Origin: a virus
Virus record (IMG/VR): IMGVR_UViG_3300048599_000816
Coordinates: 1 to 32,544 of that record
DNA: 32,544 bases
Direction: 5' to 3' (one strand)
The notes beneath the pieces are model-generated. The model saw only the letters and a program-made list of their open reading frames with translations. It did no database searches and had not been told where the DNA came from. The translations under genes were made by a program, and so were the position numbers. This document shows positions 3,539 to 20,563 of the stretch, in pieces; position 1 is the first letter of the stretch; each line of letters opens with the position of its first letter.

Positions 3539-3569
3539 ACTATATCGAGAGAAAATAAAAAACTGCCAG
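3539..3569 (-). promoter_or_regulatory. conserved promoter-like motif; its TGGCAG is the 3' arm of a terminator hairpin
   Basis: minus strand reads CTGCCAACACTGGCAG-TTTTTTATTTT-CTCTCGATATAGTTACTATCA. Confidence 0.55.
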
Positions 3570-3579
3570 TGTTGGCAGT
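3553..3579 (-). terminator. rho-independent terminator (6-bp stem CTGCCA/TGGCAG, loop ACAC, TTTTTTATTTT)
   Basis: Seen in sequence on minus strand downstream of gene 3758..4072 and the GC-rich repeat A. Confidence 0.6.
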
Positions 3580-3589
3580 GTCATGAGCA

Positions 3590-3735
3590 ACTCACGATAT
3601 AAGCCGCTCACGTAGCGCTTGAGTGCGTACTTCCGCTTACATGCGCTCATGCTCGCACACTTGTACGCACATTCGCTTGGCTCTAGTGCGCTTAAGTATA
3701 GGCGGCACTCACTGGCTACCTTCACATGAATGATG
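3590..3735 (-). repeat. GC-rich repeat element copy A (core ATGTGAAGGTAG-N3-GTGAGTGCC followed by ~100 nt GC-enriched sequence with AGCGCT/GCGCTTG)
   Basis: Shares ordered core blocks with copy B at 6000-6130; both lie directly 3' of a gene stop. Confidence 0.55.
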
Positions 3736-3757
3736 CAAGGGAATATTGTTGTGAATT

Positions 3758-4072
3758 TCAACAACCTGTAGCACCATAAAAATCACCATCAGTATCTGGA
3801 TTGTATTGACGTATGGTAGAAATATTGGGATTAAGCTCTGCCAAAGTATAGTAATCAGAATCACCTTCAAGAGTCAAACATTGATAGTAAATTTCGTTTT
3901 GAAAATTTCGTGTATTGCCATTAAAGAAAAACATAACGTTTGCAAAGTCACCTGTCTTATCCTCAGAATAAAAAACGTCATGTTTCTTGAGAGTTATTGA
4001 AGCAACTTTAGTTGCTATTCTCTGCTGTTCATCTTTATAAGCCTGTTGCTTTTTTGTAAGTTTCTTTGCCAT
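3758..4072 (-). CDS. hypothetical 104-aa protein
   Basis: ORF track; AAGGAGAGAGAATG RBS; motif upstream (4099-4130). Confidence 0.75.
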   Translation of the reverse strand: MAKKLTKKQQAYKDEQQRIATKVASITLKKHDVFYSEDKTGDFANVMFFFNGNTRNFQNEIYYQCLTLEGDSDYYTLAELNPNISTIRQYNPDTDGDFYGATGC

Positions 4073-4129
4073 TCTCTCTCCTTGGTTAGTTGATATATAC
4101 TATATCGAGAGAAGCACAACAAGCTACCA

Positions 4130-4453
4130 TCAAGACTTCAAGTAAAGCGCAAAAAGTTCAGGGAAGGTAGTTTCAAGTTGATTCAAACAACGCTTCTTAT
4201 GCAATTTCTCCGTAAGCTCTTCAAATGTCACACCATAAAGTCTCTTTGCAATATCGTCAAGCACACTAAAATGTGACACAGCACACTCAGGAAAATTCTT
4301 TACAACAAGTTCACCTACTGCTTTCCAATCAACTACAGCACTTGAAAAAATAATAGAACGTAAAAAACTTGCAATATCACCTGATCCCATATTCGTAAGA
4401 ACTGCAAGCTTCCTTGAAACAAACTCCTTAATCTCCTGCTCTGACCAATTCAT
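4130..4453 (-). CDS. hypothetical 107-aa protein
   Basis: ORF track; AAAGGAGAGTTATG RBS; motif upstream (4501-4533). Confidence 0.75.
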   Translation of the reverse strand: MNWSEQEIKEFVSRKLAVLTNMGSGDIASFLRSIIFSSAVVDWKAVGELVVKNFPECAVSHFSVLDDIAKRLYGVTFEELTEKLHKKRCLNQLETTFPELFALYLKS

Positions 4454-4541
4454 AACTCTCCTTTGTTTATTGATATGTGCTGTGCACCATCCTTTGGATG
4501 ACTACTATATCGAGAGAAAGCAACAAAACTACCAAAATAAT

Positions 4542-4577
4542 AAAGGCGCCCCAGAATTGAGCGCCTTAAGCCGGGCA
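4542..4577 (-). terminator. rho-independent terminator (AAGGCGC..GCGCCTT stem, TTTATTATTTT)
   Basis: Seen in sequence downstream of gene 4601..4879; followed directly by motif TGGTA-N17-CGATATAG. Confidence 0.55.
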
Positions 4578-4600
4578 TCACCCCAGCAACCGGAGAGAGA

Positions 4601-4879
4601 TTACTTATAATATTTTTTCAAGATTGCATTCAAATCAACTGTATCAGACACACCACGGATCACCGCTTTAATCGAACCCAGATGACAACTCACGATCACT
4701 TCATCAGAATAACGTTCCACGCGCTTTCCAAGCTCTTTAATCGGATTGGTAATTTCCAAAGCACGACCCTTAAGCACTGCCTTCTTTTCGCCCCGGATAA
4801 ACGTAACTGACGATTTCTTCTGTTCTACTGTAACGCCTTTGGGAAGAACGAGATCCTCGATAACGATTGCTTCAGCCAT
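4601..4879 (-). CDS. hypothetical 92-aa protein
   Basis: ORF track; AGGAGGATTTTTTATG RBS; two tandem motif copies upstream (near 4911 and 4983). Confidence 0.75.
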   Translation of the reverse strand: MAEAIVIEDLVLPKGVTVEQKKSSVTFIRGEKKAVLKGRALEITNPIKELGKRVERYSDEVIVSCHLGSIKAVIRGVSDTVDLNAILKKYYK

Positions 4880-4991
4880 AAAAAATCCTCCTGAATATTG
4901 TTGTTAGTTATATCGTTTCTTACCAGCTTCACTGCCAGGGTTTGTTTCACAAGTTGTTTTATTTCTTCCTGATAGTTACTATATCGTGAAA

Positions 4992-5303
4992 TTACGCCGG
5001 AATGCCAATCGCATTTTTACAACCAGCACATTCCTGCAAAGGATTATTACAAGTCTCAAGCTTACAAGTAGCATCTTCAGGATACTCTTGCTCTTCATCG
5101 CTAATATCGCTCTCAAGCGACTCCATTACTTCCTCAAGACATGGTCCATTAGACACATACTCGTTTGACACCTGCTTACCATACGCTTTCCATCGCTCAT
5201 AAAGACTTAAATTTGTACTTCTAAGCGCCTGATCAAATTCATTAAAAGCAGACTCAAGTCTTCCAGCAATCTCCTGTATTTCTTCAAATTCATCGCGTGT
5301 CAT
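4992..5303 (-). CDS. hypothetical acidic 103-aa protein
   Basis: ORF track; AAGGAGAGACTATG RBS; motif at 5329-5360. Confidence 0.75.
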   Translation of the reverse strand: MTRDEFEEIQEIAGRLESAFNEFDQALRSTNLSLYERWKAYGKQVSNEYVSNGPCLEEVMESLESDISDEEQEYPEDATCKLETCNNPLQECAGCKNAIGIPA

Positions 5304-5702
5304 AGTCTCTCCTTGTTTGTTGATAGCTACTATATCGTGAGAAACTCAGATGGCTGCCAGCAAATATACAAACGATATACTAACACGTACGTCCTTCCGT
5401 GCGTAGCATATCGGGGAAGTGTATCTATACAAGATCGTTAGACACAGTTTAGCACAAACAAAACAGCCCACCCATATATTATATAGGCAGGCTGCACTTA
5501 TAGGAGAGACGAATACTCGTGTTTATTTAATTGAAACTATTACCATCCTTGTCCTCTCAACTGTCGTATATTCTTTACCAACTTCATAACCAGCACCCTG
5601 ACGATCAGACATAAGAGAAAAAGTAAACTCCATACCCTTCAAATGACCTGTCAACATCCTCTTTGTTATCACCCATGTTCTCATCACAAACTCCTTTGTT
5701 GC

Positions 5703-5873
5703 TCAATACAATATCGCGAGATACCCGGCAACAGCCAACTGATTTTCTGCTTTAATACTTGAAGCTTCAGATATACAATCACTCTTCACTTCATCATTAC
5801 ATATATCAGCAAACTCACATATACTACAATCAATTCCCAACTCAATAATCTCTGCTTGCAAATTTCTTTCCAT
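5703..5873 (-). CDS. 56-aa Cys-rich protein (MERNLQAEIIELGIDCSICEFADICNDEVKSDC..)
   Basis: Not in track; AAGGAGAGAACATG RBS and motif upstream; hand translation. Confidence 0.5.
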   Translation of the reverse strand: MERNLQAEIIELGIDCSICEFADICNDEVKSDCISEASSIKAENQLAVAGYLAILY

Positions 5874-5999
5874 GTTCTCTCCTTGGTTGATAGAGACTAT
5901 ATCGTCTCAATGCAAACAAACTACCAACCAAATAATCTCTTTGCCTTCAGCCTGTGTAACAGAATCCATTATAATAGCAATCTGGTAATGTAAGTTTTC

Positions 6000-6130
6000 T
6001 ATGCGCGCGTATCGCGCTTGCGAGCTCATCCCTCGCTCGCTTATCACGCGTCGTATACACTTATACGTACATCGAAGCTAGCGAAGCTAGAGAGCATGCA
6101 CGGCACTCACCCTCTACCTTCACATATACT
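6000..6130 (-). repeat. GC-rich repeat element copy B (ATGTGAAGGTAG-AGG-GTGAGTGCC + GC-enriched tail)
   Basis: See copy A; lies directly 3' of gene 6150..6317. Confidence 0.55.
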
Positions 6131-6149
6131 TTCATTGGGAATTTATCGC

Positions 6150-6317
6150 TCATACCAATGCTAAAAACTCTTCCAAAGTACGAGCTGTTTCAAGTGCAAT
6201 TTTGAGATTCGCTATATCTTCTTCATTAATCACAGTATCTCGTTCCGGGCGTCCTGTAAGCTCAACAAAAATACTATTTGTTTTCTTCCTCGTTGATTTC
6301 TGCATTTCAGTCTCCAT
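6150..6317 (-). CDS. hypothetical 55-aa protein (METEMQKSTRKKTNSIFVELTGRPERDTV...)
   Basis: Internal ATG (M24 of track ORF 6150..6386) preceded by AAAGGAG and motif. Confidence 0.6.
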   Translation of the reverse strand: METEMQKSTRKKTNSIFVELTGRPERDTVINEEDIANLKIALETARTLEEFLALV

Positions 6318-6389
6318 AATCCCAACTCCTTTGTTAGATTTCATTTGGATATATACTATATCGTCATCATGCAACCCAACTACCATACA

Positions 6390-7260
6390 ATATATATCAT
6401 GCGCCCGAATTACTACTACAAAAGAAACGAAGCACGAGCGCCCATGCGCGAGTTTTTTTCATACACTTGCTACCTACAAGACAAGAATTGTTCCACGTGA
6501 AACATTTTTTTCACCCGGGCACATGTTTGCCTACAAGTGAATTTCTAGCGTAGCGTGCTCGTATCGCGCTCTTGTCATATACTCTTGCTTGAGCGCTCTT
6601 GTTCACTACCTGCACTTGTTCTCTTGTTTGCATGCGCATTTCCCTCATTTCTTATGCCCTGTCACCCGTATACTAAGTCGCAAGATGCGGGCAGCAAATA
6701 CCGGGCCTTAGTTTCTTATAAGCGTCCTGAAGTCTTAGTATCTATGTTTTGTCTTATAAGCGCCCGGAGACATTAGCGCCCAAGCAGTGGTACTTAAAGC
6801 GCTCTGGTGGTATATTGGTGCTTGTTGTATAGCGTTCTTGTAGCCCTGTACGTAGTAGCTAGAGTGTAGTAGAAGTAGATGATAGGTTCTTTTAAGGTTT
6901 TGTTATGTTTCTTTGATCTTGTGGTTTTTTTAAAGTAGAAAGTTGTTTTCAAGATATTTTTTTATAGTTGTTTTTGATTTTTTGTTGTTCCAGTGGGTTG
7001 TGTTGTTGTAAGCATGTAGAAGTAGAATTTTGTGGGTGTGTGTGGTGATGGGAGTGGGAATATTTAGATTTTCTTCTTTGATTGTTTCATCTATAGACAT
7101 TGTATCTTTTTCCATTCCGTAGTTTGTGAATTTGATGACAAGGGATTTGTGGATGATGAGGGGTGTGTGGGTTGAGTGTGCTAAACAAAACGCGTGGGGA
7201 ACTTAAGTCCCCACGTTTATAGAGGCAATGGAGGTATATGAATTGAAAAAGGAAAAGAGA
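6390..7260. other. ~870-bp non-coding region: two tandem plus-strand hairpin+T7 units each followed by GC(C/T)TACAAG, a GC-enriched block with GCGCTCT(T/G)G x3 and TCTTATAAGCG x2, then a ~450-bp G+T-rich (plus strand) tract with G-runs
   Basis: No credible ORF with RBS; strong strand compositional skew; seen directly. Confidence 0.5.
7183..7215 (-). terminator. rho-independent terminator (CGTGGGG..CCCCACG stem, then CGTTTTGTTT on minus strand)
   Basis: About 50 nt downstream of gene 7263..7901 stop. Confidence 0.6.
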
Positions 7261-7262
7261 GA

Positions 7263-7901
7263 TTACTTGATGTATGGTTTTGCTTTGCCGCAGAGTGTAC
7301 GAAGTCTTATGAGATTTGCCATGCCGTTGGCAATGCGGTAGAGTCTTTCACCGAATCCTTCTTTCATCGAGTATTTATGAGTTGTCATGAAGAATTTACT
7401 GAAGTCGGCTCCCATTTTTGCAACCAGTTCTTTTTTGAGTGTTTCATCTTCAAAGACTTCGGGACGGAGTATAACTGTAGAAGTTTTGATGACTTCGGTT
7501 GCATATTTGTCGCCCAGCAGAGTTTTCAGTGTTTCCTGGTCTTCTTTTTCCTGGGATGGTGAGAATTTGTCCTGGGTGATGAATGTGGCAGAAGTTTTTC
7601 CGTCGTCTGTGATGACCGTGTAAGAGCCGTGGAAGTCGTCTTTGAGACCATCGGTGTCCTGACGTTCAATGCAGTATTCAAGAAGTGGTCCTTCAGCTGC
7701 TCTCATGTTTCCTTCGGCTGCTTTGTATTCCTTTTTATAGCGAAGGAAGTCGATGAATTTGACTGACATATCTTTGTCAAGTTTGATGATGGGTTTGTCG
7801 CCTTTTTTGGGCGCTGAACTTGCTACGGTTGCTTCACCGAGCATTTGTTCGAACGATATTTCTTCGGGTCGGGTTGTAGTGGCTTTCTTTTTTCCTGCCA
7901 T
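7263..7901 (-). CDS. hypothetical 212-aa protein
   Basis: ORF track; AAGGAGATACAACAATG RBS; motif upstream (near 7938). Confidence 0.85.
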   Translation of the reverse strand: MAGKKKATTTRPEEISFEQMLGEATVASSAPKKGDKPIIKLDKDMSVKFIDFLRYKKEYKAAEGNMRAAEGPLLEYCIERQDTDGLKDDFHGSYTVITDDGKTSATFITQDKFSPSQEKEDQETLKTLLGDKYATEVIKTSTVILRPEVFEDETLKKELVAKMGADFSKFFMTTHKYSMKEGFGERLYRIANGMANLIRLRTLCGKAKPYIK

Positions 7902-7956
7902 TGTTGTATCTCCTTCTGAATGTTTTTTGCTTTTGATATATCGTTTTTTGTTGTTG

Positions 7957-8166
7957 TCATTGCCAACAGGTTTTTCGTTTGCAAAAGTTTAGACCTTCAT
8001 TCCATGCAGAGACATATTCAGGTTGACTATTAAGATATGCTTTACCTCGTACGCCAGCTCTGAAAGCTTCCAGCAAGTATGTTCTGTTCATATAATTTAG
8101 TTCATAATTACATGCAGGGCAAGACATATTGAATTCTAAATCGTGTGTTTCACAGTATCCTGACAT
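7957..8166 (-). CDS. 69-aa Cys-containing small protein (possible zinc-binding)
   Basis: ORF track; AAGGAGAGATTATG RBS; motif upstream (near 8203). Confidence 0.7.
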   Translation of the reverse strand: MSGYCETHDLEFNMSCPACNYELNYMNRTYLLEAFRAGVRGKAYLNSQPEYVSAWNEGLNFCKRKTCWQ

Positions 8167-8199
8167 AATCTCTCCTTGTTGAATACACTAACTATATCG

Positions 8200-8427
8200 T
8201 TAGTTGTGAGTCTGCTGCCAACAAGAACATTTGGGTCCAAGTAGAGACCTGCATTGTGGACAGAGTACTATGTCTCTGAAGTATGCAAAGACGATATCAA
8301 GATCTTCAATAAGAAGATTGTTGTCCAAGATGATGTCTTGGATTTTTTCAGAGTCTTCTTCGAAAAGATCAAATTGATCAATGACTTTTTCAGCCATTTC
8401 AAGAAGTGCGTCACTTACATGCGACAT
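8200..8427 (-). CDS. hypothetical acidic 75-aa protein with C-terminal CxxC..CxC
   Basis: ORF track; AAAGGAGTTACTTTATG RBS. Confidence 0.7.
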   Translation of the reverse strand: MSHVSDALLEMAEKVIDQFDLFEEDSEKIQDIILDNNLLIEDLDIVFAYFRDIVLCPQCRSLLGPKCSCWQQTHN

Positions 8428-8581
8428 AAAGTAACTCCTTTGAGCTTAAGGGACGTTCATGTCCATTGAATTCAATTGTGACGATGCCATTCCAGTTTAT
8501 AGCCCATTGTTTTGCTTCTTTTATGTCATGAGTCCAGTTGTAATGTTGGCCATACACATGATATTTTTTCTTCATTGACAT
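8411..8581 (-). CDS. possible 56-aa protein (MSMKKKYHVYGQHYNWTHDIKEAKQW...) overlapping both neighbours
   Basis: Hand translation; start overlaps stop of the 29-aa peptide (ATGTCAATGA); weak RBS; low confidence. Confidence 0.3.
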   Translation of the reverse strand: MSMKKKYHVYGQHYNWTHDIKEAKQWAINWNGIVTIEFNGHERPLSSKELLYVACK

Positions 8582-8661
8582 AGTAATGCACCCCCAATAA
8601 AACTAACAATGACAAGCATGATTGCTATGATAACGAGATATTTTGTTTTGGGATGTTTCAT
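8572..8661 (-). CDS. 29-aa membrane peptide MKHPKTKYLVIIAIMLVIVSFIGGALLCQ
   Basis: AAAAGGAGAGAAAATATG RBS plus motif copy (near 8688) plus upstream terminator; hand translation. Confidence 0.45.
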   Translation of the reverse strand: MKHPKTKYLVIIAIMLVIVSFIGGALLCQ

Positions 8662-8765
8662 ATTTTCTCTCCTTTTATATTATATGATATCGAGAGATTT
8701 TTTAGGTTTTGCCATGGAGATGAGTTGAAGAGGTGCGATTATATTTTGCGCTTTATAGATATAGA

Positions 8766-8794
8766 GCAAAGAAAAAGCCCTCTTGCAAGGGCTC
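8766..8794 (-). terminator. rho-independent terminator (AGCCCT..AGGGCT stem, TTTTTCTTT)
   Basis: Directly downstream of gene 8816..9019. Confidence 0.55.
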
Positions 8795-8815
8795 GAGTGA
8801 AGGTTTGCAGTGTCA

Positions 8816-9019
8816 TTACCAGTTGTCTACAGATTTTGCATTTTCTTCAAGCCAGCGATTGCCTCTGCAGTATGTTCGGATTGCTGCACGACGGTCTCCA
8901 GTAGCTTCATAAACTGTTTTTGCATCAACTAAACGTTGTGCTACGCTTCTATTGATTTGTGCTTGTTTTGCAAGACGCATTGTTATTTCTTTGTCAGCAA
9001 GACTTCCTTCTTCTTTCAT
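8816..9019 (-). CDS. hypothetical 67-aa protein
   Basis: ORF track; start overlaps upstream stop (TAAATAATG). Confidence 0.7.
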   Translation of the reverse strand: MKEEGSLADKEITMRLAKQAQINRSVAQRLVDAKTVYEATGDRRAAIRTYCRGNRWLEENAKSVDNW

Positions 9020-9399
9020 TATTTAGCTCCGTCTTCGAATTGAACTGAGAAGCCTTCATTGGGCATGTTGAGATTTGCTTTGGTGCCACAAGTGCAAGTG
9101 TAGTTCAAGTTGTGCAAAGAACTGTTTCCGCCTCCACCGTTTAGTTCCATGTTCTTTCCACATTTGGGGCACTTGATTTTAATGAAACGCTTTGCAACGT
9201 TGTAGATCGAGTTGCATGTTGAATGAAAATCGACTTTGTGTTTGAGAAAGTAGTCGATTGATAGATCACGATAGTCTTTGCGGCGATCTGATCTATCCTC
9301 AAAGCATGCATGTTCGACAATGTGCGTGGGATCAACTTCAATTTGACCGATCTTTACTCTTATGCCAGGAAGTTTACTATCAAAGTCTTCGATTTTCAT
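9019..9399 (-). CDS. 126-aa protein with zinc-ribbon-like CPKCG...CTCG
   Basis: ORF track; GAGGAGAGAATCATG RBS. Confidence 0.8.
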   Translation of the reverse strand: MKIEDFDSKLPGIRVKIGQIEVDPTHIVEHACFEDRSDRRKDYRDLSIDYFLKHKVDFHSTCNSIYNVAKRFIKIKCPKCGKNMELNGGGGNSSLHNLNYTCTCGTKANLNMPNEGFSVQFEDGAK

Positions 9400-9411
9400 G
9401 ATTCTCTCCTC

Positions 9412-14852: not shown

Positions 14853-16145
14853 TTAATATGTCTTGCCGTTCGGGTAGAGTTTGTGATAGTCAGGTAAGAA
14901 AGTCTTTGCATATTCTCTTATAAGATGACTTTTAGGATATCCAAAGAAAGAAAAGAGTTTGTCATCATCCCAAGACTGATTAAAGTCAAGCCAGGGAACT
15001 AATGCAAGTTCTCCAATATTCAAAGAACTATTTATTTTTATAATAGAAATACATAATCTAATAAAGTCTGTTTTGATAGCAGATAAAAAATTGTTTTTAT
15101 TTTCTTCTGAAGAAAAAATAAAAACAATTTCACCAGGAATAACATTAGAAATTGATCTTGGCAAAAAATTCTGTTTTTGTTTTACTCCTTTTATAGTTTT
15201 GACTTTCTCTACATTCATTGGTGACAAAGTATAAAAATTCGATTGTGGTTTATCGCGTTTATTAGTTCTAATAGTAGATAATTGAACGAAGATTTCATCT
15301 TTGTGAAAGACTTCAGCTTCTCTTGAAGAAATCCTTTGAGTCTCAAAGCTTCCATTTGTATTGATAAATTTTTGAAGTTTTGGAATTAAGTCTTTTAAGA
15401 GATACCAATTTTCTCCATGTAAAGAAATATCATTAATATCTTTTATATCAATAAATTTACTTGTGTTAAGAAATCTTACTTTAATTGGTTTTGTTCTTAC
15501 TTTTTCAAAATTGATTTTACTTATTACGCAATCTGTACCAAGACCAATTCCAAAAACTGGATTAGGGTCAAAAAACTCAACAGACTCGAGATGTTCATTT
15601 GTCAATGATCTCATTTTTTGAAAAAGTTGCTTTCCTCTATTAGAATCGAGTCTAGTCTTTATATCAACAAGCCAAGCAGATGGATGTACACATATCAACT
15701 TTTTGAGCATATTTACTTTTTTCAAAGCAAGAATAATTTTGAGATCTACATCTCTATAAGGCGGGTTTGAAAAAGTAACATCAGCAGCTTGATTCATTTT
15801 ACAACCCACAAAAAACTCCTTAATATTCTTTTGATTCTTAAGAATCTTGTCCCAATCTTCTTTTCCGATCAAGACAGATTCAACACCATAAATCTGTGAA
15901 AATGCTACTTTCTCTTCTGTATCACCAACATACTGTACTTTCTTCATGTCATAATTTCGAGAAACTAAAACTTCTAAAAACTCAAGATTGAAGAAAACTC
16001 TAACAGACCCTTGCAAATCTCGTGGAATCATCTTCTCTACTAAATCAAATGGTGTAAAAAAAGTTTGAAGACCATCATGTACAATGTGTTTGATTATCTC
16101 TTTTCTACTAAAACTATTTGAAAAAACATCTTCACGTGCTCTCAT
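14853..16145 (-). CDS. gamma-class N6-adenine DNA methyltransferase-like protein with motif X (FFTPFDLVEKM) and motif IV (FSNPPY) but degenerate motif I
   Basis: NPPY and TPxxLV motifs seen in translation; likely start is M24 of track ORF (AAGGAGAGAGAATG), preceded by a degenerate motif copy. Confidence 0.75.
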   Translation of the reverse strand: MRAREDVFSNSFSRKEIIKHIVHDGLQTFFTPFDLVEKMIPRDLQGSVRVFFNLEFLEVLVSRNYDMKKVQYVGDTEEKVAFSQIYGVESVLIGKEDWDKILKNQKNIKEFFVGCKMNQAADVTFSNPPYRDVDLKIILALKKVNMLKKLICVHPSAWLVDIKTRLDSNRGKQLFQKMRSLTNEHLESVEFFDPNPVFGIGLGTDCVISKINFEKVRTKPIKVRFLNTSKFIDIKDINDISLHGENWYLLKDLIPKLQKFINTNGSFETQRISSREAEVFHKDEIFVQLSTIRTNKRDKPQSNFYTLSPMNVEKVKTIKGVKQKQNFLPRSISNVIPGEIVFIFSSEENKNNFLSAIKTDFIRLCISIIKINSSLNIGELALVPWLDFNQSWDDDKLFSFFGYPKSHLIREYAKTFLPDYHKLYPNGKTY

Positions 16146-16188
16146 TCTCTCTCCTTGATTTGTTGTTACTAACGATATCGCAACAAAA

Positions 16189-16812
16189 TCAAATAAGAGC
16201 CATACGTTTTTCAAATAATTTAGAGTTTTCTTCTACACGACTATTTGTACAACTATCAAACAAATCTTTTACTTTCTCAGTCTCATCATACCACTTGTCT
16301 CTATATACCCAAATCCCAGTCTCTGCTTCATCTGGCAACTTGCTTCTTTGAGTTACATCACCCATCAACAATCTAATATCAGTCCCAAAAGTATAAAGAA
16401 GTCTATAACAAGAACTTGGTTGTAACTCACTAAACAAGTGTGTCTCGTTTAAAAACTTATCTATTTTAAAACTTTCACCTAAAAGACTATATTTTTTTCT
16501 AAGCATCCTGACAGAAAACTGACCATACCCAGCACACAGGTCTTCTGTAGTAAGTTCTTGATTTTGCCATTCTTCATCTGATAGTTTATCTAACATGTAG
16601 TCAACAAGCCATAGAGGTGTAAAAACTTCTCCATGTAAGTCTGATTTTTCTTTATTTGTAGTTACTTGTTGATTTTCAAGTGGCGGGTGAGAAAGATCTA
16701 CATTTTCTATTAAAGGATACTTCGACAAATCTACATTCAAATTTGTAGATTCTAAGAATCTCTTTTCTATGAACTCTATCTTGTTTCTAGTACTACTTTT
16801 TCTAGCAATCAT
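16189..16812 (-). CDS. methyltransferase N-terminal-like protein with motif X (VFTPLWLVDYM) and motif I (EDLCAGYGQF) but no NPPY
   Basis: Motifs seen in translation; unusual expression signals (no SD, no conserved motif; TATAAT 15 nt upstream of ATG). Confidence 0.65.
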   Translation of the reverse strand: MIARKSSTRNKIEFIEKRFLESTNLNVDLSKYPLIENVDLSHPPLENQQVTTNKEKSDLHGEVFTPLWLVDYMLDKLSDEEWQNQELTTEDLCAGYGQFSVRMLRKKYSLLGESFKIDKFLNETHLFSELQPSSCYRLLYTFGTDIRLLMGDVTQRSKLPDEAETGIWVYRDKWYDETEKVKDLFDSCTNSRVEENSKLFEKRMALI

Positions 16813-16896
16813 AGTTGATACTACATTATAAAAAGAGTAGAAAAAGCGTATTTTTTAATGGTTTTATCACTTGCTACAAATTAAAGGAGACAACAA

Positions 16897-17307
16897 ATGT
16901 TAAACAGCGAACTTTTAATAAAGAGTATAGTTGCATCATTTTCTGACATGTCAACACATGAACTTGAAAAGTTTATAGAAAAAAGATATAAAGAAAAAGC
17001 ACCACAAAGTGAAATTGACAAGTTAGAGAATGAATATGCTACAAGAGTATCTGAAGACGATTTGGATATGTCAGAAGGTATCTCTCTTGAAGAACAACTT
17101 AGAAACATGTATCATAGATATATTACTCCTAAAGATAGAGGAGGAATGGAAGAAGAAGACATTATAAACAACATGAGGTCTGCAATAGATAGTTACAGGG
17201 GCACATCTTCTAACTTTTCAGATAAACAAATCTTAGATGCTGCTAAAGATGTTTATATGCATCGAAAAAACTTGCTTTTAAAATACAAACAAAAACGTTT
17301 AAAATAG
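16897..17307 (+). CDS. hypothetical acidic 136-aa protein (plus strand)
   Basis: ORF track; TTAAAGGAGACAACAAATG RBS; divergent from 16189..16812. Confidence 0.8.
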   Translation: MLNSELLIKSIVASFSDMSTHELEKFIEKRYKEKAPQSEIDKLENEYATRVSEDDLDMSEGISLEEQLRNMYHRYITPKDRGGMEEEDIINNMRSAIDSYRGTSSNFSDKQILDAAKDVYMHRKNLLLKYKQKRLK

Positions 17308-17328
17308 ATCCTCCTATGACCCTCACGG

Positions 17329-17403
17329 GCCTAAACAAAACGAGCCATAGGAGATAACCTAAGGCTCTAAAATTTGTGTGTTGTAATGTCCCGAACTGAT
17401 CAA
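17329..17403. repeat. ~75-bp repeat R2 with terminator hairpin (GAGCCATAGG..CCTAAGGCTC), between convergent genes; overlaps the stop codon of 17400..17702
   Basis: About 88% identical to R1; hairpin flanked by A-run on one side and T-rich run on the other, so potentially a bidirectional terminator. Confidence 0.65.
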
Positions 17404-17702
17404 CAGCAGGCAGTGAGTTGGAGTGCCGGTGCACTGATTTTTGCCTTTGGTGCTTCTAAGGGAGTCCGACCATACTTACGACCTTTGAGTCCAGCAGCTT
17501 CAAGATGTTTGCATGAACCATGACGAATATTACCACGACATGAGCATGTCCACCAACCAGCAGCTGCATCGTAAGAAATCATGTATTTGTTGTTTGAAGA
17601 CTCTGACCTGACTGTAAAGCGAACTTTGTAACGATCAGTATCAGGGAAAACTTCAACTGCATTTCTTGGGATCAGGGAATTTGTTGTTGTAAGTTCGTTC
17701 AT
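17400..17702 (-). CDS. SWIM zinc-finger protein (WTCSCRGNIRHGSCKHL)
   Basis: CxCx(n)CxH pattern seen in translation; AAGGAGAGAACCATG RBS; motif near 17745. Confidence 0.8.
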   Translation of the reverse strand: MNELTTTNSLIPRNAVEVFPDTDRYKVRFTVRSESSNNKYMISYDAAAGWWTCSCRGNIRHGSCKHLEAAGLKGRKYGRTPLEAPKAKISAPALQLTACC

Positions 17703-17768
17703 GGTTCTCTCCTTGTTTGTTGGTTATAGAAGCTATATCGTGAGATTTGGAGAAACAACCAATCTTTT

Positions 17769-18014
17769 TTAACAGTTTAGCGCTTCAAGACCATCAATTT
17801 CTTTTGATAAATCTGACACAAGATTTCTTAAAAACTTTGAGTCGTTGTCATCTTTTAGAGCATGAGCTGCAAGTAAAAGACATGATTGAGCAATTTCAAT
17901 ACGCTTCTCATCCCAAGTGTAATGGGCTATATCAGGTGGTAAGTCGTTGAGCATCTGTAAAGTACGAGCAATTGAATCAATAACAGTAATGATCTCTGGT
18001 TTATCTTTAATCAT
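17769..18014 (-). CDS. hypothetical 81-aa protein
   Basis: ORF track; overlaps upstream gene end. Confidence 0.7.
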   Translation of the reverse strand: MIKDKPEIITVIDSIARTLQMLNDLPPDIAHYTWDEKRIEIAQSCLLLAAHALKDDNDSKFLRNLVSDLSKEIDGLEALNC

Positions 18015-18264
18015 TTTTTCTCTCCTTTGCCAGTTTAGAACAAATCTTATCTACAGATTTATGAATGAGCATTTTTTGCGCTTGATTATTTGTTGCAGGA
18101 TTTTGTAAGTTTGTAAAGTATTCAATGATTTCATCGTCAGTGAAAGACTTTTTTAACTCTGCAATCATTTGTTTAACAATTTTTGTTGCAGTACTTTTTT
18201 TCACTTCTGCATCAATCATGCCATTGACTTGATAGTCAATAATTTCTTGCATTGTTTGTTTCAT
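18007..18264 (-). CDS. hypothetical 85-aa protein
   Basis: ORF track; AAGGAGAGAAAAAATG RBS. Confidence 0.75.
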   Translation of the reverse strand: MKQTMQEIIDYQVNGMIDAEVKKSTATKIVKQMIAELKKSFTDDEIIEYFTNLQNPATNNQAQKMLIHKSVDKICSKLAKERKND

Positions 18265-18275
18265 TTTTTCTCTCC

Positions 18276-18629
18276 TTAAGTAAAATAGATTTGTTGAGCA
18301 TCTTTGATAAAGTCAAGTATTTCTTGAATTCTTATCTCATAGTATGAAGCATCTTTTCCTTGTTCAATGATTGGTGAATGACCTGATTTTTTATAGATAG
18401 TAGTTTTTGTTGTGAATTCACTTGGTGTATTGCGAACTACTTGAAGTAAAGTAGTAAGTTTGTTTTTTAGTATTTCAAGTTCACCGCCATCGATTGTCAC
18501 ACCAAAGTCTTTGATTTTGTAGTCTATCATAAACATAAGAGAGTCGAAGTTGCCGTTAGCAAAGCTGGGACCTTCTCTTGTTATAAGGCCAAAACGAGTA
18601 TTGATTTTGCCATAAATTGAGATAGACAT
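18276..18629 (-). CDS. hypothetical 117-aa protein
   Basis: ORF track; GGGAATAGAAAAATG weak SD, close-packed operon with neighbours. Confidence 0.75.
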   Translation of the reverse strand: MSISIYGKINTRFGLITREGPSFANGNFDSLMFMIDYKIKDFGVTIDGGELEILKNKLTTLLQVVRNTPSEFTTKTTIYKKSGHSPIIEQGKDASYYEIRIQEILDFIKDAQQIYFT

Positions 18630-18641
18630 TTTTCTATTCCC

Positions 18642-19019
18642 TTATCTTTTTTCGTATTCAGATTTCCAGACAACAAAGTTGTTATATTGACTTTCAGACC
18701 ATTCATATTCAACATCAGCACCGTCCATTAAACGTTGCCGTACAGCTTCAACAAGAGTTTCATGTACTTTTTGCGTGTATATGATTCCATAATGAGGAAA
18801 GCAATCTCTCATGCCTACAAAAAGGTGAGTGTCCAGTATGTAAATCAACTTGTGATTGGGCATTTCGATAAAGTCAAGAATGACCCTGACAACATTGTGC
18901 GTATGTTCAATTAGCACAGTTGGTATTTTCTCTGGGTGTTCAAAGTCAATATCAAGTTCTTTTTCGAACTGACTTAAAAAGAATTTGTACAAATTTGACT
19001 TTTCAGTTTCTCTATTCAT
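18642..19019 (-). CDS. hypothetical 125-aa protein
   Basis: ORF track; AGGAGGAAACTATG RBS; motif near 19037; terminator 19064-19099 upstream. Confidence 0.8.
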   Translation of the reverse strand: MNRETEKSNLYKFFLSQFEKELDIDFEHPEKIPTVLIEHTHNVVRVILDFIEMPNHKLIYILDTHLFVGMRDCFPHYGIIYTQKVHETLVEAVRQRLMDGADVEYEWSESQYNNFVVWKSEYEKR

Positions 19020-19063
19020 AGTTTCCTCCTAATAGCTATATCGTTAGAAGTAGTATGTGTTGC

Positions 19064-19099
19064 CAAAAACAAAAAAGGCCCTGGCATTCGCCAAGGGCC
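19064..19099 (-). terminator. rho-independent terminator (GGCCCTTGGC..GCCAGGGCC, TTTTTTGTTTTT) fused to next promoter motif
   Basis: Minus strand: hairpin, T-tract, then TGGCAACACATACTACTTCTAACGATATAG. Confidence 0.6.
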
Positions 19100-19187
19100 G
19101 TAAGGAAAGGAGAGAGATTTATAAAAAGACAAGACTATAAGTGTTTCCGTTTGAAGATTCAAACGACCATTCCTGTTTAAGCCTTGT

Positions 19188-19415
19188 CTATTTCTTCAAT
19201 GATTTGTTCTTTGAAAGATACTTTGCTAAGTACAAGAGCTTTAATTGTTCTTGACGTTGTTCTTGTTTTTTATCTTTGTTTTCTAATCTTTCATTTTCTT
19301 TTTCAGGATCATGAACTGCACAATACCAAGTTTCGTCTCTTTTTACAACAGCATCATTTTTGCATTGTCTCCAATGAAATACTCCATTGCCTTTAATTTG
19401 CTTTTGGCATTGCAT
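19188..19415 (-). CDS. 75-aa Cys-containing basic protein
   Basis: ORF track; starts 5 nt after upstream stop. Confidence 0.65.
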   Translation of the reverse strand: MQCQKQIKGNGVFHWRQCKNDAVVKRDETWYCAVHDPEKENERLENKDKKQEQRQEQLKLLYLAKYLSKNKSLKK

Positions 19416-19419
19416 TTTT

Positions 19420-19641
19420 TTATCTGCCTACTTCCATAGTTTGTGGTCCATGCATTACATAACCAGCACTATTTGGAGGACAATAAGAGACATTTACTTC
19501 AAAAGACTTCGCTAATTTTATTATTTCTTTTGGTGTCCAAGATTCTGAGTAAGTAAAAAATTCTAGCCATTTCAAAGAGCCAAAAAAGTTTTTATAATAC
19601 TCCTGATCTTTTTTAGCCAGAAGTTTTTTTGCTTTTTCCAT
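19420..19641 (-). CDS. hypothetical 73-aa protein (starts MEKAKKLLAKK)
   Basis: Internal ATG (M10 of track ORF 19420..19668) with GAGGTAACAATG SD, just after upstream stop. Confidence 0.6.
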   Translation of the reverse strand: MEKAKKLLAKKDQEYYKNFFGSLKWLEFFTYSESWTPKEIIKLAKSFEVNVSYCPPNSAGYVMHGPQTMEVGR

Positions 19642-19648
19642 TGTTACC

Positions 19649-19924
19649 TCACAAACCGAAAGTTTCAATTGCTTTGATTACAACGTTGCATGCTTCAGCA
19701 GTGAAATCAGCGCCATGAATGTCAGCTTCAACAATCTCAATGAATTTGTTGATCAGTTCGAGTTCTTCAGGTGTTGATGCATAAGCTTCTGGAGTAGCTT
19801 TGTATGCTTCAAGAAATTCAGCTAGACAATGTCCTTCTTCAAGTTCCAAGTTGTCGTCCCAACCAGGAAGCTTTGAGAAGTGATCTATAACGTGTAATTC
19901 GAGTTCTGTACGTTCATGTTTCAT
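19649..19924 (-). CDS. hypothetical acidic 91-aa protein
   Basis: ORF track; AAGGAGAGACTATG RBS; motif near 19953. Confidence 0.75.
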   Translation of the reverse strand: MKHERTELELHVIDHFSKLPGWDDNLELEEGHCLAEFLEAYKATPEAYASTPEELELINKFIEIVEADIHGADFTAEACNVVIKAIETFGL

Positions 19925-19981
19925 AGTCTCTCCTTTTGTTGATAGTTACTATATCGCGTGTTGCGAAATAGTTGCCAACAA

Positions 19982-20329
19982 TTATTTATTGCTTTTGACA
20001 CATATAGAATAAGAACCATCAACATAAGATTCGATTGAAAAACCAAAACCTTCACCAATTCTTCTTATCATATCTGAGGTTGCTGTTTGACAAAGTTTCT
20101 GGTATTTTGTTTCTTGAGTATTTGTGTTGCCATGAACTTTTTCGCCAGCAGCTTCAAAGAAGCCTTTTGTTTTTGATGCAGTCCAGAGTTTCTTAAGACC
20201 TTTGATATAGTTGCGTGCATTACTACGAGTTTCTTTGGGACAATCACGAGGTATTGCAAGTGTACCTTCGTTGATATGTATTTCCCAACCGTCTACATTG
20301 ATAAAACTTGGTGACGGAAACTTGTTCAT
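19982..20329 (-). CDS. hypothetical 115-aa protein
   Basis: ORF track; TAAGGAGAGTTTATG RBS. Confidence 0.8.
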   Translation of the reverse strand: MNKFPSPSFINVDGWEIHINEGTLAIPRDCPKETRSNARNYIKGLKKLWTASKTKGFFEAAGEKVHGNTNTQETKYQKLCQTATSDMIRRIGEGFGFSIESYVDGSYSICVKSNK

Positions 20330-20338
20330 AAACTCTCC

Positions 20339-20479
20339 TTATTCTAAACCAGCAAGTGTTCTGAGTTCTATTAAAAGATTTTCGACAGAAGAACTTTCAG
20401 GACCATTTGACATTTGAGCGATTTTTATCATACGAGCTTTTGAAGCAATCAAAATCATGTTGAAAGAAATTGGGTCCAT
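20339..20479 (-). CDS. possible 46-aa protein (MDPISFNMILIASKARMIKIAQMSNGPESSSVENLLIELRTLAGLE)
   Basis: AAGGAGAGAACATG RBS plus motif copy (20505-20536) plus upstream terminator; stop overlaps next RBS; hand translation. Confidence 0.45.
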   Translation of the reverse strand: MDPISFNMILIASKARMIKIAQMSNGPESSSVENLLIELRTLAGLE

Positions 20480-20537
20480 GTTCTCTCCTTTGTTTAGTGA
20501 TAGTAACTATATCGTGAGAAAGCGAGAGAGTTACCAA

Positions 20538-20563
20538 AACACAAAAAGGGGGCTTAAGCCCCG
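20538..20563 (-). terminator. rho-independent terminator (GGGGC-TTAA-GCCCC, TTTTTGTGTTTT)
   Basis: Immediately downstream of lipoprotein gene stop (20568). Confidence 0.6.

What the first reader, a model, noticed from the sequence alone, without database searches (positions are those of the whole stretch)
3553..20563. Terminator-promoter fusion punctuation: hairpin + T-tract immediately upstream of the motif, with TGGCA sometimes forming the 3' stem arm
At least seven intergenic regions carry a GC hairpin plus T-run on the gene (minus) strand, directly followed by the TGGCA-N17-CGATATAG motif: 3553-3579, 4542-4577, 7183-7215, 8766-8794, 12550-12587, 19064-19099 and 20538-20563.

At 3563-3579 and 28213-28232 the TGGCA(G) of the motif is part of the hairpin itself (CTGCCAACACTGGCAG). 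This implies largely monocistronic transcription units for a long run of small genes. Such tight coupling is reminiscent of T4/T5-type early regions, but the signals are different.
Basis: seen in the sequence. Interest (0 to 1): 0.55.

Follow-up and report, generated by a model that had tools for sequence, protein, structure and literature searches.

The report
Terminator hairpins abutting phage promoters
In the early-gene region of an uncultured ~427-kb phage, ordinary hairpin-plus-U-run transcription terminators often sit directly against the next gene's promoter; the arrangement is real and conserved in related phages, but it is a familiar kind of gene punctuation built from an undescribed promoter sequence.

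Summary
The minus strand carries about 36 copies of tTGGCA-N16/17-CGATATAG, one before most genes. It also carries about 20 intergenic hairpins (-9 to -23 kcal/mol), most followed by a UUUU(U)GUUU tail.

In about 10 cases the tail runs straight into TGGCA or overlaps it. Two have 36- and 60-nt gaps. One (7183-7215) has no motif after it.

Across related metagenomic phages, 21 of 197 promoters have an adjacent terminator, against about 3 in shuffles. One orthologous hairpin shows compensatory changes at 8 of 10 pairs.

Best reading: these are intrinsic terminators that insulate sigma-type promoters. The -10 core matches the sigma-28 type and the -35 box resembles a primary-sigma -35. "Largely monocistronic" overstates it, because only 19 of 65 genes are followed by a hairpin and most promoters overlap the end of the upstream gene.

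The "TGGCA in the stem" hairpin at 3562-3579 is also the shared centre of two back-to-back divergent promoters.

Which sigma factor or polymerase reads the motif is unresolved. The kind is known; the signals are new. Interest is moderate.

The parts
2189..30465 (-). Array of about 36 promoter-like motifs, tTGGCA-N16/17-(tCTCw)CGATATAGt..tATCA. Each lies 24-59 nt upstream of a start codon preceded by a Shine-Dalgarno sequence.
   Evidence: The two blocks are separated by 16 nt (15 copies) or 17 nt (20 copies). The motif is conserved in L011, L012, L015, L016 and about 30 metagenome loci.
3562..3579 (-). Hairpin ACUGCCA-ACAC-UGGCAGU followed by U6AU4. The -35 box TGGCA (3564-3568) forms the 3' arm, and the -10 box CGATAT lies at 3542-3547. 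The hairpin is also the centre of a divergent promoter pair; the plus-strand copy lies at 3573-3602.
   Evidence: (-10.2 kcal/mol, z -4.0).
4543..4567 (-). Terminator hairpin with tail UAUUAUUU. It abuts the -35 variant TGGTA at 4530-4534 (8 nt).
   Evidence: (-14.5 kcal/mol).
5373..5413 (-). Hairpin with tail UUUGUAUAUUU, 13 nt upstream of the -35 box at 5355-5359. Its arms contain CGATAT-like boxes. A plus-strand promoter copy (5351-5380) and a conserved block (up to about 5425) overlap it.
   Evidence: (-18.2 kcal/mol).
5463..5495 (-). Strong terminator hairpin with tail UUUGUUUG, 103 nt upstream of the next -35 box.
   Evidence: -21.7 kcal/mol, z -4.1.
7193..7215 (-). Terminator hairpin with tail CGUUUUGUUU. 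No promoter follows; an approximately 800-nt non-coding stretch comes next.
   Evidence: (-14.3 kcal/mol).
8775..8794 (-). Terminator hairpin with tail UUUCUUUG. The -35 box (8710-8714) lies 60 nt downstream.
   Evidence: (-12.2 kcal/mol).
10659..10677 (-). Hairpin GCCGG-GACUUCAAA-CCGGC with tail UCUCCUU, 7 nt from the -35 box at 10647-10651. The same hairpin sequence recurs at 11317-11337.
   Evidence: (-10.8 kcal/mol).
11317..11337 (-). Second copy of the same hairpin, after the DnaJ-domain gene, with tail CUUCUUUUUU. No promoter follows before the next gene.
12562..12587 (-). Terminator hairpin with tail GUUUUGUUU. The -35 box (12521-12525) lies 36 nt downstream.
   Evidence: (-19.2 kcal/mol, z -5.2).
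17311..17353 (-). Large-loop hairpin inside a roughly 100-nt repeat shared with the 12628-12473 intergenic gap. No promoter follows.
   Evidence: (-20.3 kcal/mol).
19077..19099 (-). Terminator hairpin followed by U6GU5, which runs into the -35 box at 19061-19065.
   Evidence: (-17.7 kcal/mol, z -4.4). The positional orthologue in L011 has a different stem.
20549..20562 (-). Short GC hairpin followed by CUUUUUGUGUUU, which runs into the -35 variant TGGTA at 20532-20536.
   Evidence: (-9.8 kcal/mol). The orthologous junction in L011 has an unrelated stem.
21480..21539 (-). Composite long hairpin followed by UUCUUUU, which runs into the -35 box at 21468-21472.
   Evidence: (-19.2 kcal/mol).
23534..23560 (-). 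Terminator after rIIB. Its tail UUUUUGUU is fused to the -35 box at 23524-23528.
   Evidence: (-19.2 kcal/mol). The junction is conserved with different stems in L059, L012, L017 and L015.
25063..25088 (-). Terminator after rIIA, with tail GUUUGUUUUUU. The -35 variant TGGTA (25022-25026) lies 36 nt downstream.
   Evidence: -18 kcal/mol. Covariation in 7 orthologues: 8 of 10 pairs changed on both sides.
27741..27774 (-). Strong terminator hairpin with tail CUGUUUUAGU. The -35 box (27711-27715) lies 25 nt downstream.
   Evidence: (-23.2 kcal/mol, z -6.3).
28209..28228 (-). Hairpin CAGGAGC-UAAAAU-GCUCCUG, whose last two bases are the TG of the -35 box (28206-28210). The U-run is weak.
   Evidence: (-13.8 kcal/mol). 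In the L011 orthologue the whole TGGCA lies in the 3' arm.
2941..2960 (-). Terminator hairpin with tail GCCGUUUUUC. The -35 box (2869-2873) lies 67 nt downstream.
   Evidence: (-10.3 kcal/mol).
2344..2363 (-). Hairpin GCAAGCGC-UUUA-GCGCUUGC, 3 nt from the -35 box (2336-2340). It has no U-run, so it is doubtful as a terminator.
   Evidence: (-14.5 kcal/mol).
311..595 (+). Gene for a 94-aa protein with two helix-turn-helix motifs. The N-terminal half resembles region 4 of the primary sigma factor (FGVSRERIRQI). It is a candidate reader of, or competitor for, the TTGGCA box; this is an inference only.

Best explanation
THE ELEMENTS. The hairpins are Rho-independent (intrinsic) terminators of a hairpin- and U-tract-sensitive RNA polymerase. 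The TGGCA-N16/17-CGATATAG motif is a two-block, sigma-type promoter.

REGISTER. If the A of CGA is taken as position -11, as in sigma-28 promoters, then TGGCA occupies -35 to -31. Position +1 then falls on the A of the conserved ATCA, and leaders are about 20 nt long.

WHAT HAPPENS AT A JUNCTION. Roughly one promoter in three in this window is preceded by a terminator in the same intergenic gap. In about ten cases the U-run (consensus UUUU(U)GUUU) ends at the -35 box or overlaps it. The upstream transcript would then be released about 35-40 bp before the next start site.

LIKELY FUNCTION (inferred).
- The terminator shields the promoter from polymerases arriving from upstream, preventing promoter occlusion.
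- It lets expression be set gene by gene in a very compact array.
- Released bacterial-type polymerase may re-initiate at the adjacent promoter. This is speculative.

THE OTHER PROMOTERS. They overlap the end of the upstream gene and have no terminator, so transcripts there are nested and read through.

SHOWN VERSUS INFERRED.
- Shown: sequence anatomy, stability, strand and position bias, conservation and covariation.
- Inferred: that the motif fires, that the hairpins terminate, and which sigma factor or polymerase is involved. It is probably a clade-specific sigma-like factor, because the motif matches no host-type consensus and is constant across relatives of 33-48% GC.
For: - MOTIF FREQUENCY AND PLACEMENT. 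The motif occurs 23 times against 0.36 expected. It is oriented with the genes and sits at a fixed distance from the Shine-Dalgarno sequence and start codon.
- TWO SPACER CLASSES. The 16- and 17-nt spacings between blocks are typical of recognition by two separate domains, as in sigma factors.
- MATCH TO SIGMA-28. The -10 core CGATAT matches the sigma-28 consensus (-15)GCCGATAA(-8) (PMC12784957). That register places +1 on the conserved ATCA block.
- NOT A SIGMA-70 ARRAY. Sigma-70-type sites are not enriched: 62 found against 57.6 expected, and 46 against 49.2.
- HAIRPIN PROPERTIES. Hairpins fold at -9.8 to -23.2 kcal/mol, and 13 of 20 have z at or below -2.5. The U-rich tails lie on the gene strand.
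- POSITION. 16 of 19 long intergenic gaps carry a hairpin, against 3 of 45 short ones.
- ADJACENCY. 21 of 197 promoters have an adjacent terminator, against 3.15 +/- 1.9 in shuffles and 6 of 613 at non-promoter TGGCA/TGGTA pentamers.
- COVARIATION. In the orthologous rIIA-downstream hairpin, 88% of cells are paired against 37-49% when the partner is slid. 8 of 10 pairs changed on both sides, and 0 of 500 shuffles reached the observed score.
- CONSERVED JUNCTION. The rIIB-downstream junction, hairpin-UUUUUGUU-TGGCA, keeps its layout with different stems in five relatives.
- PLAUSIBILITY OF RECYCLING. Bacterial polymerase can stay on DNA after intrinsic termination and re-initiate nearby (PMC6978380, PMC6978322).
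Against: - There are no RNA data, so neither 5' nor 3' ends are shown.
- Several hairpins have weak or absent U-runs (28209-28228, 2344-2363, 2200-2219, 10659-10677) and may be weak terminators or something else.
- My loose terminator scan is noisy: 142 sense against 111 antisense hits in 217 kb.
- Only about 11% of promoters across the related phages have a directly adjacent terminator, so 'fusion' is an option rather than a rule.
- No general A/T-rich UP-like tract lies upstream of the -35 box, only a mild T preference at -7 to -1. A dual role for the U-run in promoter strength is therefore unsupported.
- No sigma region 2 or polymerase gene turned up among roughly 100 proteins scanned from the window and relatives.
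Confidence: 0.75

Rival explanations
1. The palindromes that contain TGGCA are primarily DNA-level features. They would be the shared centre of back-to-back divergent promoters, or sites for a dimeric protein that binds TGGCA. Any RNA hairpin and termination would be secondary.
For: - A complete plus-strand motif copy lies at 3573-3602, and another at 5351-5380.
- The pattern ATATCG-N16/17-TGCCA-N0-20-TGGCA-N16/17-CGATAT recurs in L029, L057 and L137. In two of these only 2 nt separate the boxes, so no hairpin can form.
- The plus-strand copies lead into a block conserved in 11 loci.
- The window encodes a helix-turn-helix protein resembling sigma region 4.
Against: - This applies to at most 3-5 of about 20 hairpins. 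The rest have unrelated stems that covary.
- The 3562-3579 hairpin is followed by a U6AU4 run that other promoter spacers lack, and this is conserved in L029. That fits termination as well.
Confidence: 0.3
2. The hairpins are RNA-processing or 3'-end-stabilising structures (RNase III/E sites or exonuclease blocks) in long read-through transcripts. They would not be sites of termination.
For: - Some hairpins lack a good U-run.
- Most promoters have no terminator, so long transcripts must exist.
- Conserved boxes (CUCUCC, AUCAGU) lie just 5' of many hairpins.
Against: - 17 of 21 hairpins have at least 5 U among the 10 nt after the stem.
- They share a UUUU(U)GUUU tail.
- Stems are short, GC-rich and perfect, which is the intrinsic-terminator form rather than the long irregular stems typical of RNase III sites.
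Confidence: 0.12
3. The hairpins are part of promoter recognition, as in N4-type hairpin promoters read by a virion polymerase, or they are copies of a mobile repeat.
For: - Proximity to the motif.
- One hairpin sequence (GCCGGGACUUCAAACCGGC) occurs twice in the window and identically in L011, L016, L062 and L064.
Against: - About two thirds of promoters in the window, and 89% across the related phages, have no adjacent hairpin.
- The distance to the -35 box ranges from -7 to more than 60 nt.
- Apart from that one pair, stems differ in sequence.
- Three hairpins have no promoter after them at all.
Confidence: 0.03

Closest known systems
Intrinsic (Rho-independent) terminators of bacteria and phages
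   Same: - GC-rich stem-loop of 5-15 bp followed at once by a U-rich run.
- Located after stop codons, on the gene strand.
- Stability of -9 to -23 kcal/mol.
- Stems covary between orthologues.
   Different: - The tail has a recurrent interrupted form, UUUU(U)GUUU.
- In about 10 cases the tail is also the upstream flank, or even the spacer, of the next promoter.
- Many are preceded by a CUCUCC box that resembles an anti-Shine-Dalgarno sequence.
T4 prereplicative (early/middle) gene arrays and the SPO1 host-takeover module
   Same: - Long one-directional runs of small genes, many with their own strong stereotyped promoter and strong ribosome-binding site.
- rIIA and rIIB are present.
- T4 middle genes are also reached by extension of early transcripts (PMC2988021).
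- The SPO1 module is organised as many short operons, each with its own predicted promoter (PMC6873191).
   Different: - T4 early and SPO1 early promoters are excellent matches to the host primary-sigma consensus. This motif is not, and TTGACA-17-TATAAT-type sites are not enriched.
- No MotA- or AsiA-like protein was found.
Sigma-28 (FliA/SigD, group 3) promoters
   Same: - The -10 core CGATA(A/T) is the same.
- The distance between the upstream block and CGA is the same (TAAA-N15-GCCGATAA equals N17 to CGA).
- The -10 consensus and its register come from PMC12784957.
   Different: - The upstream block is TTGGCA, which resembles a primary-sigma -35 box, rather than TCTAAAG/TAAA.
- The extended -10 'GC' is replaced by C(T/A).
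- The motif drives phage early-type genes, not flagellar genes.
Divergent promoters with overlapping upstream elements, and T4-type promoter-dependent replication origins
   Same: - Back-to-back promoters share a palindromic -35 region.
- The reverse copies lead into conserved non-coding DNA. From my own knowledge, this recalls the T4 origins oriF and oriG, which pair a promoter with a downstream element.
   Different: No evidence here for replication or for an RNA product. RNAalifold found no convincing structure.

Membership tests
Intrinsic (Rho-independent) terminator | Stable GC-rich stem-loop | tested here: met
   20 folds at -9.8 to -23.2 kcal/mol; consensus scan.
Intrinsic (Rho-independent) terminator | U-rich run immediately 3' of the stem | tested here: met
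   17 of 21 hairpins have at least 5 U among the next 10 nt. Four are weak or lack it: 28209-28228, 2344-2363, 2200-2219, and, for its first 8 nt, 10659-10677.
Intrinsic (Rho-independent) terminator | Lies downstream of a gene, on the gene's strand | tested here: met
   All lie in minus-strand intergenic gaps. 16 of 19 gaps of 85 nt or more carry one.
Intrinsic (Rho-independent) terminator | Pairing, not sequence, is conserved in orthologues | tested here: met
   rIIA-downstream hairpin: 8 of 10 pairs show compensatory change, and 0 of 500 shuffles reach the observed score. The rIIB-downstream stems differ between relatives.
Intrinsic (Rho-independent) terminator | RNA 3' ends in the U-run; termination in vitro | not testable with these tools
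   No transcript data are available.
Sigma-70-family two-block promoter | Two conserved blocks about 17 bp apart with limited spacer variation, upstream of genes | tested here: met
   TGGCA-N16 (15 copies) and TGGCA-N17 (20 copies) before CGATAT, 24-59 nt upstream of start codons.
Sigma-70-family two-block promoter | Match to the primary-sigma consensus TTGACA-17-TATAAT | tested here: not met
   The consensus scan shows no enrichment. With a 17-bp spacer the -10 hexamer would read CGATAT, which puts G at -11.
Sigma-28 (group 3) promoter | -10 element GCCGATAA, with CGA at -13 to -11 | tested here: inconclusive
   The core CGATAT is invariant, but the 'GC' is replaced by C(T/A). Consensus taken from PMC12784957.
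Sigma-28 (group 3) promoter | -35 element TAAA / TCTAAAG | tested here: not met
   The upstream block is (t/a)TGGCA.
N4-type hairpin promoter | Every promoter contains a short hairpin at a fixed position | tested here: not met
   About two thirds of window promoters and 176 of 197 promoters in related loci have no adjacent hairpin, and distances vary.
T7-type single-subunit polymerase promoter | One contiguous conserved block of about 23 bp from -17 to +6, with no separate upstream element | tested here: not met
   A separate TGGCA block lies at variable (16/17 nt) spacing. The resemblance of CTCACGATATAG to T7's CTCACTATAG is my own recollection and is treated as coincidence.
T4-type early/middle gene array | rIIA/rIIB plus many small genes with individual promoters in one orientation | tested here: met
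   (Phage_T4_rIIB).
T4-type early/middle gene array | MotA/AsiA-type sigma appropriation factors | tested here: not met
   No such Pfam hit among about 100 proteins scanned. Only a small part of the genome was available.

The most novel reading that the evidence does not exclude
The terminator-promoter junctions would be one visible part of a clade-specific transcription system in phages of about 425 kb. Its parts would be:
- a phage-supplied sigma-like factor, possibly split, with the 94-aa protein resembling sigma region 4 (311-595) reading TTGGCA, and a sigma-28-like -10 reader;
- terminators placed so that released polymerase re-initiates at the abutting promoter;
- a CUCUCC anti-Shine-Dalgarno-like box 5' of the terminators that couples termination to translational insulation or mRNA end-pairing;
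- reverse-facing promoter copies that make conserved non-coding transcripts, which could be primers for replication origins or regulatory RNAs.
Probability: 0.15. Interest if true: 0.65.

Novelty: new member of a known kind. Interest (0 to 1): 0.38.

Why it matters
- ANNOTATION. The result gives a ready transcription map (promoters, predicted start sites, terminators) for an uncultured group of roughly 425-kb phages found in several metagenome and assembly collections (JGI, ENA, including an activated-sludge assembly, Logan and NCBI). These signals would improve gene calling and help pick out early genes.
- TESTABLE QUESTION. A constant promoter that fits no host consensus, across relatives of 33-48% GC, points to a phage-determined specificity factor that can now be looked for.
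- BUILDING BLOCKS. The compact terminator-promoter junctions are natural examples of minimal insulator parts.
- LIMIT. The punctuation itself teaches nothing new about how termination or initiation works.

Tried and rejected
SEARCHES THAT LED NOWHERE
- Megablast of 18 kb against 50,697 phage records gave no match.
- The motif scan of IMG/VR gave only single chance hits.
- The exact-protein look-up of rIIA failed, both for the window's copy and for P0001.
- The closest deposited phage by rIIA (LR756500, 462 kb, 24% GC) does not use the motif.
- tRNA and Rfam scans of the window were empty.
- A literature search for CGATATAG found nothing relevant.

LOOKING FOR THE POLYMERASE OR SIGMA FACTOR
- Pfam and PHROGs scans of about 100 proteins from the window and relatives found only a small helix-turn-helix protein resembling sigma region 4.

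IDEAS TESTED AND NOT SUPPORTED
- That the U-run doubles as an UP element: there is no general A/T tract upstream of the -35 box.
- N4-like hairpin promoters and mobile-repeat origin: rejected on counts and on stem diversity.
- A primary-sigma reading (TTGGCA plus TATAGT): it needs a 19-20 bp spacer.
- A T7-like reading: rejected because of the separate upstream block.
- An RNA structure for the conserved block downstream of the reverse promoters: none was convincing.

TECHNICAL LIMITS
- A formal pair count on the rIIB-downstream junction was not attempted, because the alignment does not keep the stems in register.
- My first loose terminator scans had many false positives.

Full report
WHAT THE WINDOW IS

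The 32.5-kb window (37% GC) is a one-directional array of about 65 mostly small genes on the minus strand, from 32544 down to about 2048. Three plus-strand genes at 1-1696 converge on it.

It encodes rIIA (25128-27302) and rIIB (23583-24629). It also encodes a DEAD/ResIII helicase, a DUF932 protein, a DnaJ-domain protein and a GIY-YIG homing endonuclease.

The rIIA protein is 100% identical to a protein recorded on a 426,911-bp JGI contig. Relatives sit on contigs of 424, 158, 109 and 74 kb. The source is therefore an uncultured 'huge' phage. No deposited phage resembles it at the DNA level.

THE MOTIF

On the minus strand, tTGGCA-N16/17-(tCTCw)CGATATAGt..tATCA occurs far above chance: 23 hits against 0.36 expected at up to 2 mismatches. 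With a slightly looser definition it precedes 36 of the 65 genes. The C of CGATAT lies 24-59 nt before a start codon with a Shine-Dalgarno sequence, most often 31-36 nt.

The two blocks are separated by 16 nt (15 copies) or 17 nt (20 copies). That is the behaviour of a two-domain, sigma-type reader rather than of a single-subunit polymerase.

The motif is conserved in relatives whose rIIA is only 55-60% identical and whose GC content ranges from 33 to 48%.

Primary-sigma-type sites are not enriched in the window.

The -10 core is the sigma-28 core. The published consensus is (-15)GCCGATAA(-8) with A-11 flipped out (PMC12784957). Using that register:
- TGGCA occupies -35 to -31.
- Position +1 falls on the A of the conserved ATCA block. 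This is an internal consistency I did not build in.
- The upstream block resembles the primary-sigma -35 box (TTGACA) rather than the sigma-28 -35 box.

I therefore read the motif as a sigma-type promoter with a hybrid specificity. Which factor reads it is not shown.

THE HAIRPINS

I found about a dozen more.
- Of 21 hairpins, 17 have at least 5 U among the 10 nt after the stem. The tails share the form UUUU(U)GUUU.
- All lie in minus-strand intergenic gaps. 16 of the 19 gaps of 85 nt or more contain one, against 3 of 45 shorter gaps. A long gap here essentially means 'terminator present'.
- Only three of the hairpins (25063-25088, 27741-27774, 20549-20562) are symmetric enough to score on both strands.

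IS THE COUPLING TO THE MOTIF REAL?

- 3562-3579: overlap
- 4543-4567: 8 nt
- 19077-19099: 11 nt
- 20549-20562: 12 nt

It does not hold at three sites:
- 12562-12587: 36 nt
- 8775-8794: 60 nt
- 7193-7215: no motif follows, and the next -35 box is 807 nt away.

Further direct junctions exist at 23534-23560, 21480-21539, 10659-10677, 5373-5413 and 2344-2363. The last has no U-run.

Across 26 non-redundant related loci, 21 of 197 promoters have a hairpin (at or below -9.5 kcal/mol) plus T-tail ending between -8 and +15 nt from TGGCA. Shuffles of the flanks give 3.15 +/- 1.9. TGGCA/TGGTA pentamers that are not promoters give 6 of 613.

The density of terminator ends falls steadily with distance from the -35 box. 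The junction is therefore real and favoured, but it applies to a minority of promoters.

CONSERVATION

The hairpin after rIIA can be aligned in seven relatives:
- 88% of cells pair, against 37-49% when the partner column is slid.
- 8 of 10 pairs have changes on both sides.
- No shuffle out of 500 reaches the observed covariation score.

The junction after rIIB keeps one layout in WIN, L059, L012, L017 and L015, with clearly different stems: box, hairpin, CUUUUUGUU, TGGCA.

The junction at 20549-20562 has an unrelated stem at the orthologous place in L011.

Selection is therefore on the structure and its position. This is what is expected of terminators. It is not expected of a mobile repeat or of a sequence-specific protein site.

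HOW IT MOST LIKELY WORKS

Shown: the anatomy, stability, strand and position bias, and covariation described above.

Inferred:
- The hairpin and U-run stop polymerases that started upstream, releasing RNA about 35-40 bp before the next start site.
- The next promoter is then not occluded, and each small gene's output is set by its own promoter.
- Where the -35 box lies on or inside the upstream stop codon (for example taaTGGCA at 22650 and 27375) there is no room for a terminator, and read-through must occur.

The counts are 36 genes with a promoter, 19 followed by a hairpin and 14 with both. Promoter-to-promoter intervals have a median of 1 gene and a mean of 1.8. Terminator-delimited blocks average 3.2 genes. 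'Largely monocistronic' is therefore only partly right.

Two further ideas:
- Bacterial polymerase can remain on DNA after intrinsic termination and re-initiate nearby, whereas T7-type polymerases fall off (PMC6978380, PMC6978322, PMC11347151). A promoter abutting a terminator would be well placed to profit from this, but that is speculation.
- I tested whether the U-run could double as an UP element. Promoters in general show only a mild T preference at -7 to -1 and no A/T tract further upstream, so this is not supported.

THE 'TGGCA IN THE STEM' CASES

At 3562-3579 the hairpin arms are two inverted -35 boxes. A full plus-strand motif copy lies at 3573-3602, so this is a back-to-back divergent promoter pair.
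- The same arrangement occurs at 5351-5380 / 5332-5359. There the two -35 boxes overlap by one base.
- It also occurs in L029, L057 and L137, in two of which the boxes are only 2 nt apart and no hairpin can form.
- The U6AU4 run in the spacer at 3552-3561, conserved in L029, still allows a terminator role. Both readings may hold.

At 28209-28228 only the TG of TGGCA is paired and the U-run is poor. In the L011 orthologue the whole TGGCA is paired.

WHO READS THE PROMOTER?

This is unresolved. Pfam and PHROGs scans of about 100 proteins from the window and relatives found no sigma region 2 and no polymerase.

The one lead is the plus-strand gene at 311-595, which encodes a 94-aa protein:
- Its N-terminal half aligns with region 4 of the primary sigma factor, matching PDB 1rio_H and 1ku3_A with E-values near 0.01. 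The recognition helix reads FGVSRERIRQI against FGVTRERIRQI.
- Its C-terminal half is a second helix-turn-helix.
- It has only three homologues in 5.8 billion proteins.

From my own knowledge of sigma-70/-35 contacts, TTGGCA keeps every base of TTGACA that region 4 reads specifically, apart from position -32. This protein, or the host sigma factor's own region 4, could therefore read the box. None of this is tested. Some huge phages are reported to encode their own sigma-70 and anti-sigma factors (bioRxiv 10.1101/572362).

COMPARISON WITH KNOWN SYSTEMS

In kind this is ordinary: intrinsic terminators and sigma-type promoters punctuating a phage early-type array.
- T4 is one precedent. Its early promoters are very strong matches to the host consensus, and its middle genes are also reached by extension of early transcripts (PMC2988021).
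- The SPO1 host-takeover module is another, made of many short operons each with its own predicted promoter (PMC6873191).

It differs in three ways:
- the promoter sequence, for which I found no description;
- the frequent fusion of the U-run with the -35 flank;
- the accessory boxes described below.

It fails the defining tests for N4-type hairpin promoters and for T7-type promoters. It meets only part of the sigma-28 definition.

VERDICT

The feature is a new member of a known kind. Moderate interest comes from the undescribed, clade-wide promoter and the open question of its reader. Confidence in the terminator and promoter reading is 0.75.

Noticed in passing
Window minus strand, 3-9 nt 5' of terminator stems: about 27788, 23567, 19114, 11346, 10687, 5508 and 4597. 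Also in L011, L012, L015, L016 and L059.: A box reading CUCUCUCC(U), the exact reverse complement of the array's extended Shine-Dalgarno sequence AAGGAGAGAG, lies just upstream of many terminator hairpins. Six of the ten CTCTCC on the minus strand are at such places. Across related loci, 10 of 27 distinct terminators have the box, against 4.3% of random 25-nt windows. It might pair with a Shine-Dalgarno sequence, either the mRNA's own or the next gene's in read-through RNA. This is untested.
   Followed up: partly
Window plus strand 5351-5425 and 3573-3602. Also L029, L030, L057, L095, L098, L136, L137 and L012.: Promoter copies facing against the gene array lead, after 35-60 nt, into one of two conserved blocks: ...CCGTGYGTAGCATAYCGGGGWAGTGTA or ...CTGCTAAACGGCAAGRGCTTGTGCAGGGAGAYCGGGGAAGTGTA. 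The block is often followed by GC-rich stretches dense in GCGC. RNAalifold found no convincing fold. This could be a small RNA or a promoter-dependent replication origin.
   Followed up: partly
Window 3603-3757, 5990-6130 and 6318-6929 (minus-strand intergenic gaps of 264, 276 and 612 nt).: Unusually GC-rich non-coding stretches in a 37% GC phage. They contain recurring GCGC-containing words (GCGCTTATAAG, AAGCGC...). Two of them share a 25-nt end, CGGCACTCAC..CTACCTTCACAT (3703-3727 and 6101-6125). There is no Rfam or tRNA hit.
   Followed up: no
Window 311-595 (+).: A 94-aa protein whose N-terminal half aligns with region 4 of the primary sigma factor (FGVSRERIRQI) and whose C-terminal half is a second helix-turn-helix. 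Only three homologues were found, one of them 163 aa long.
   Followed up: partly
Window 28235-29044 (-) and 29047-29067.: A GIY-YIG/NUMOD3 homing endonuclease gene lies between the DUF932 gene and the next gene; it is absent at this place in L011. Its Shine-Dalgarno sequence is sequestered in the hairpin AAAUCUCCUU-CAA-GGAGAUUU. Its 3' end carries a second CTCTCGATATAG copy at 28237-28248.
   Followed up: no
Window 27303-27352; L011, L012, L015 and L016 upstream of rIIA.: The rIIA leader contains a conserved hairpin, GUUAGUGUAAGGAAAAGGAACACUAAC, between the promoter and the Shine-Dalgarno sequence.
   Followed up: no
Window 25095-25122; L011, L012, L015, L016, L017, L041 and L036.: A conserved 3'-UTR box, AUCAG-N4-G-W-UAGG..GAGCA, lies between the rIIA stop codon and its terminator. 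Related AUCAGU words precede the terminators at 12587, 17353, 2960 and 2363.
   Followed up: partly
Window 12474-12627 and 17300-17399.: A repeat of about 100 nt (CAGTTCGGGACA..ACACAAATTTTAGAGCCTTAGGT..GGCTCGTTTTGTTTAGGC) is shared by two intergenic gaps. The second copy is followed by a possible plus-strand gene (16897-17307) inside the minus-strand array.
   Followed up: no
Window 1697-2047.: A 350-nt non-coding stretch where the plus and minus gene arrays converge. It has GC-rich pairing-prone segments (GGCCCTCTAGGGC..., GAGGGCCTCGCGGGAGGCC) and a direct repeat, CTACCCTATCAA (1735 and 1849). There is no Rfam hit.
   Followed up: no
Window 10659-10677 and 11317-11337; L011, L016, L062 and L064.: One terminator hairpin (GCCGGGACUUCAAACCGGC, with a 9-nt loop) is identical in sequence in divergent relatives and is duplicated in the window. 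The other terminators, by contrast, covary.
   Followed up: no
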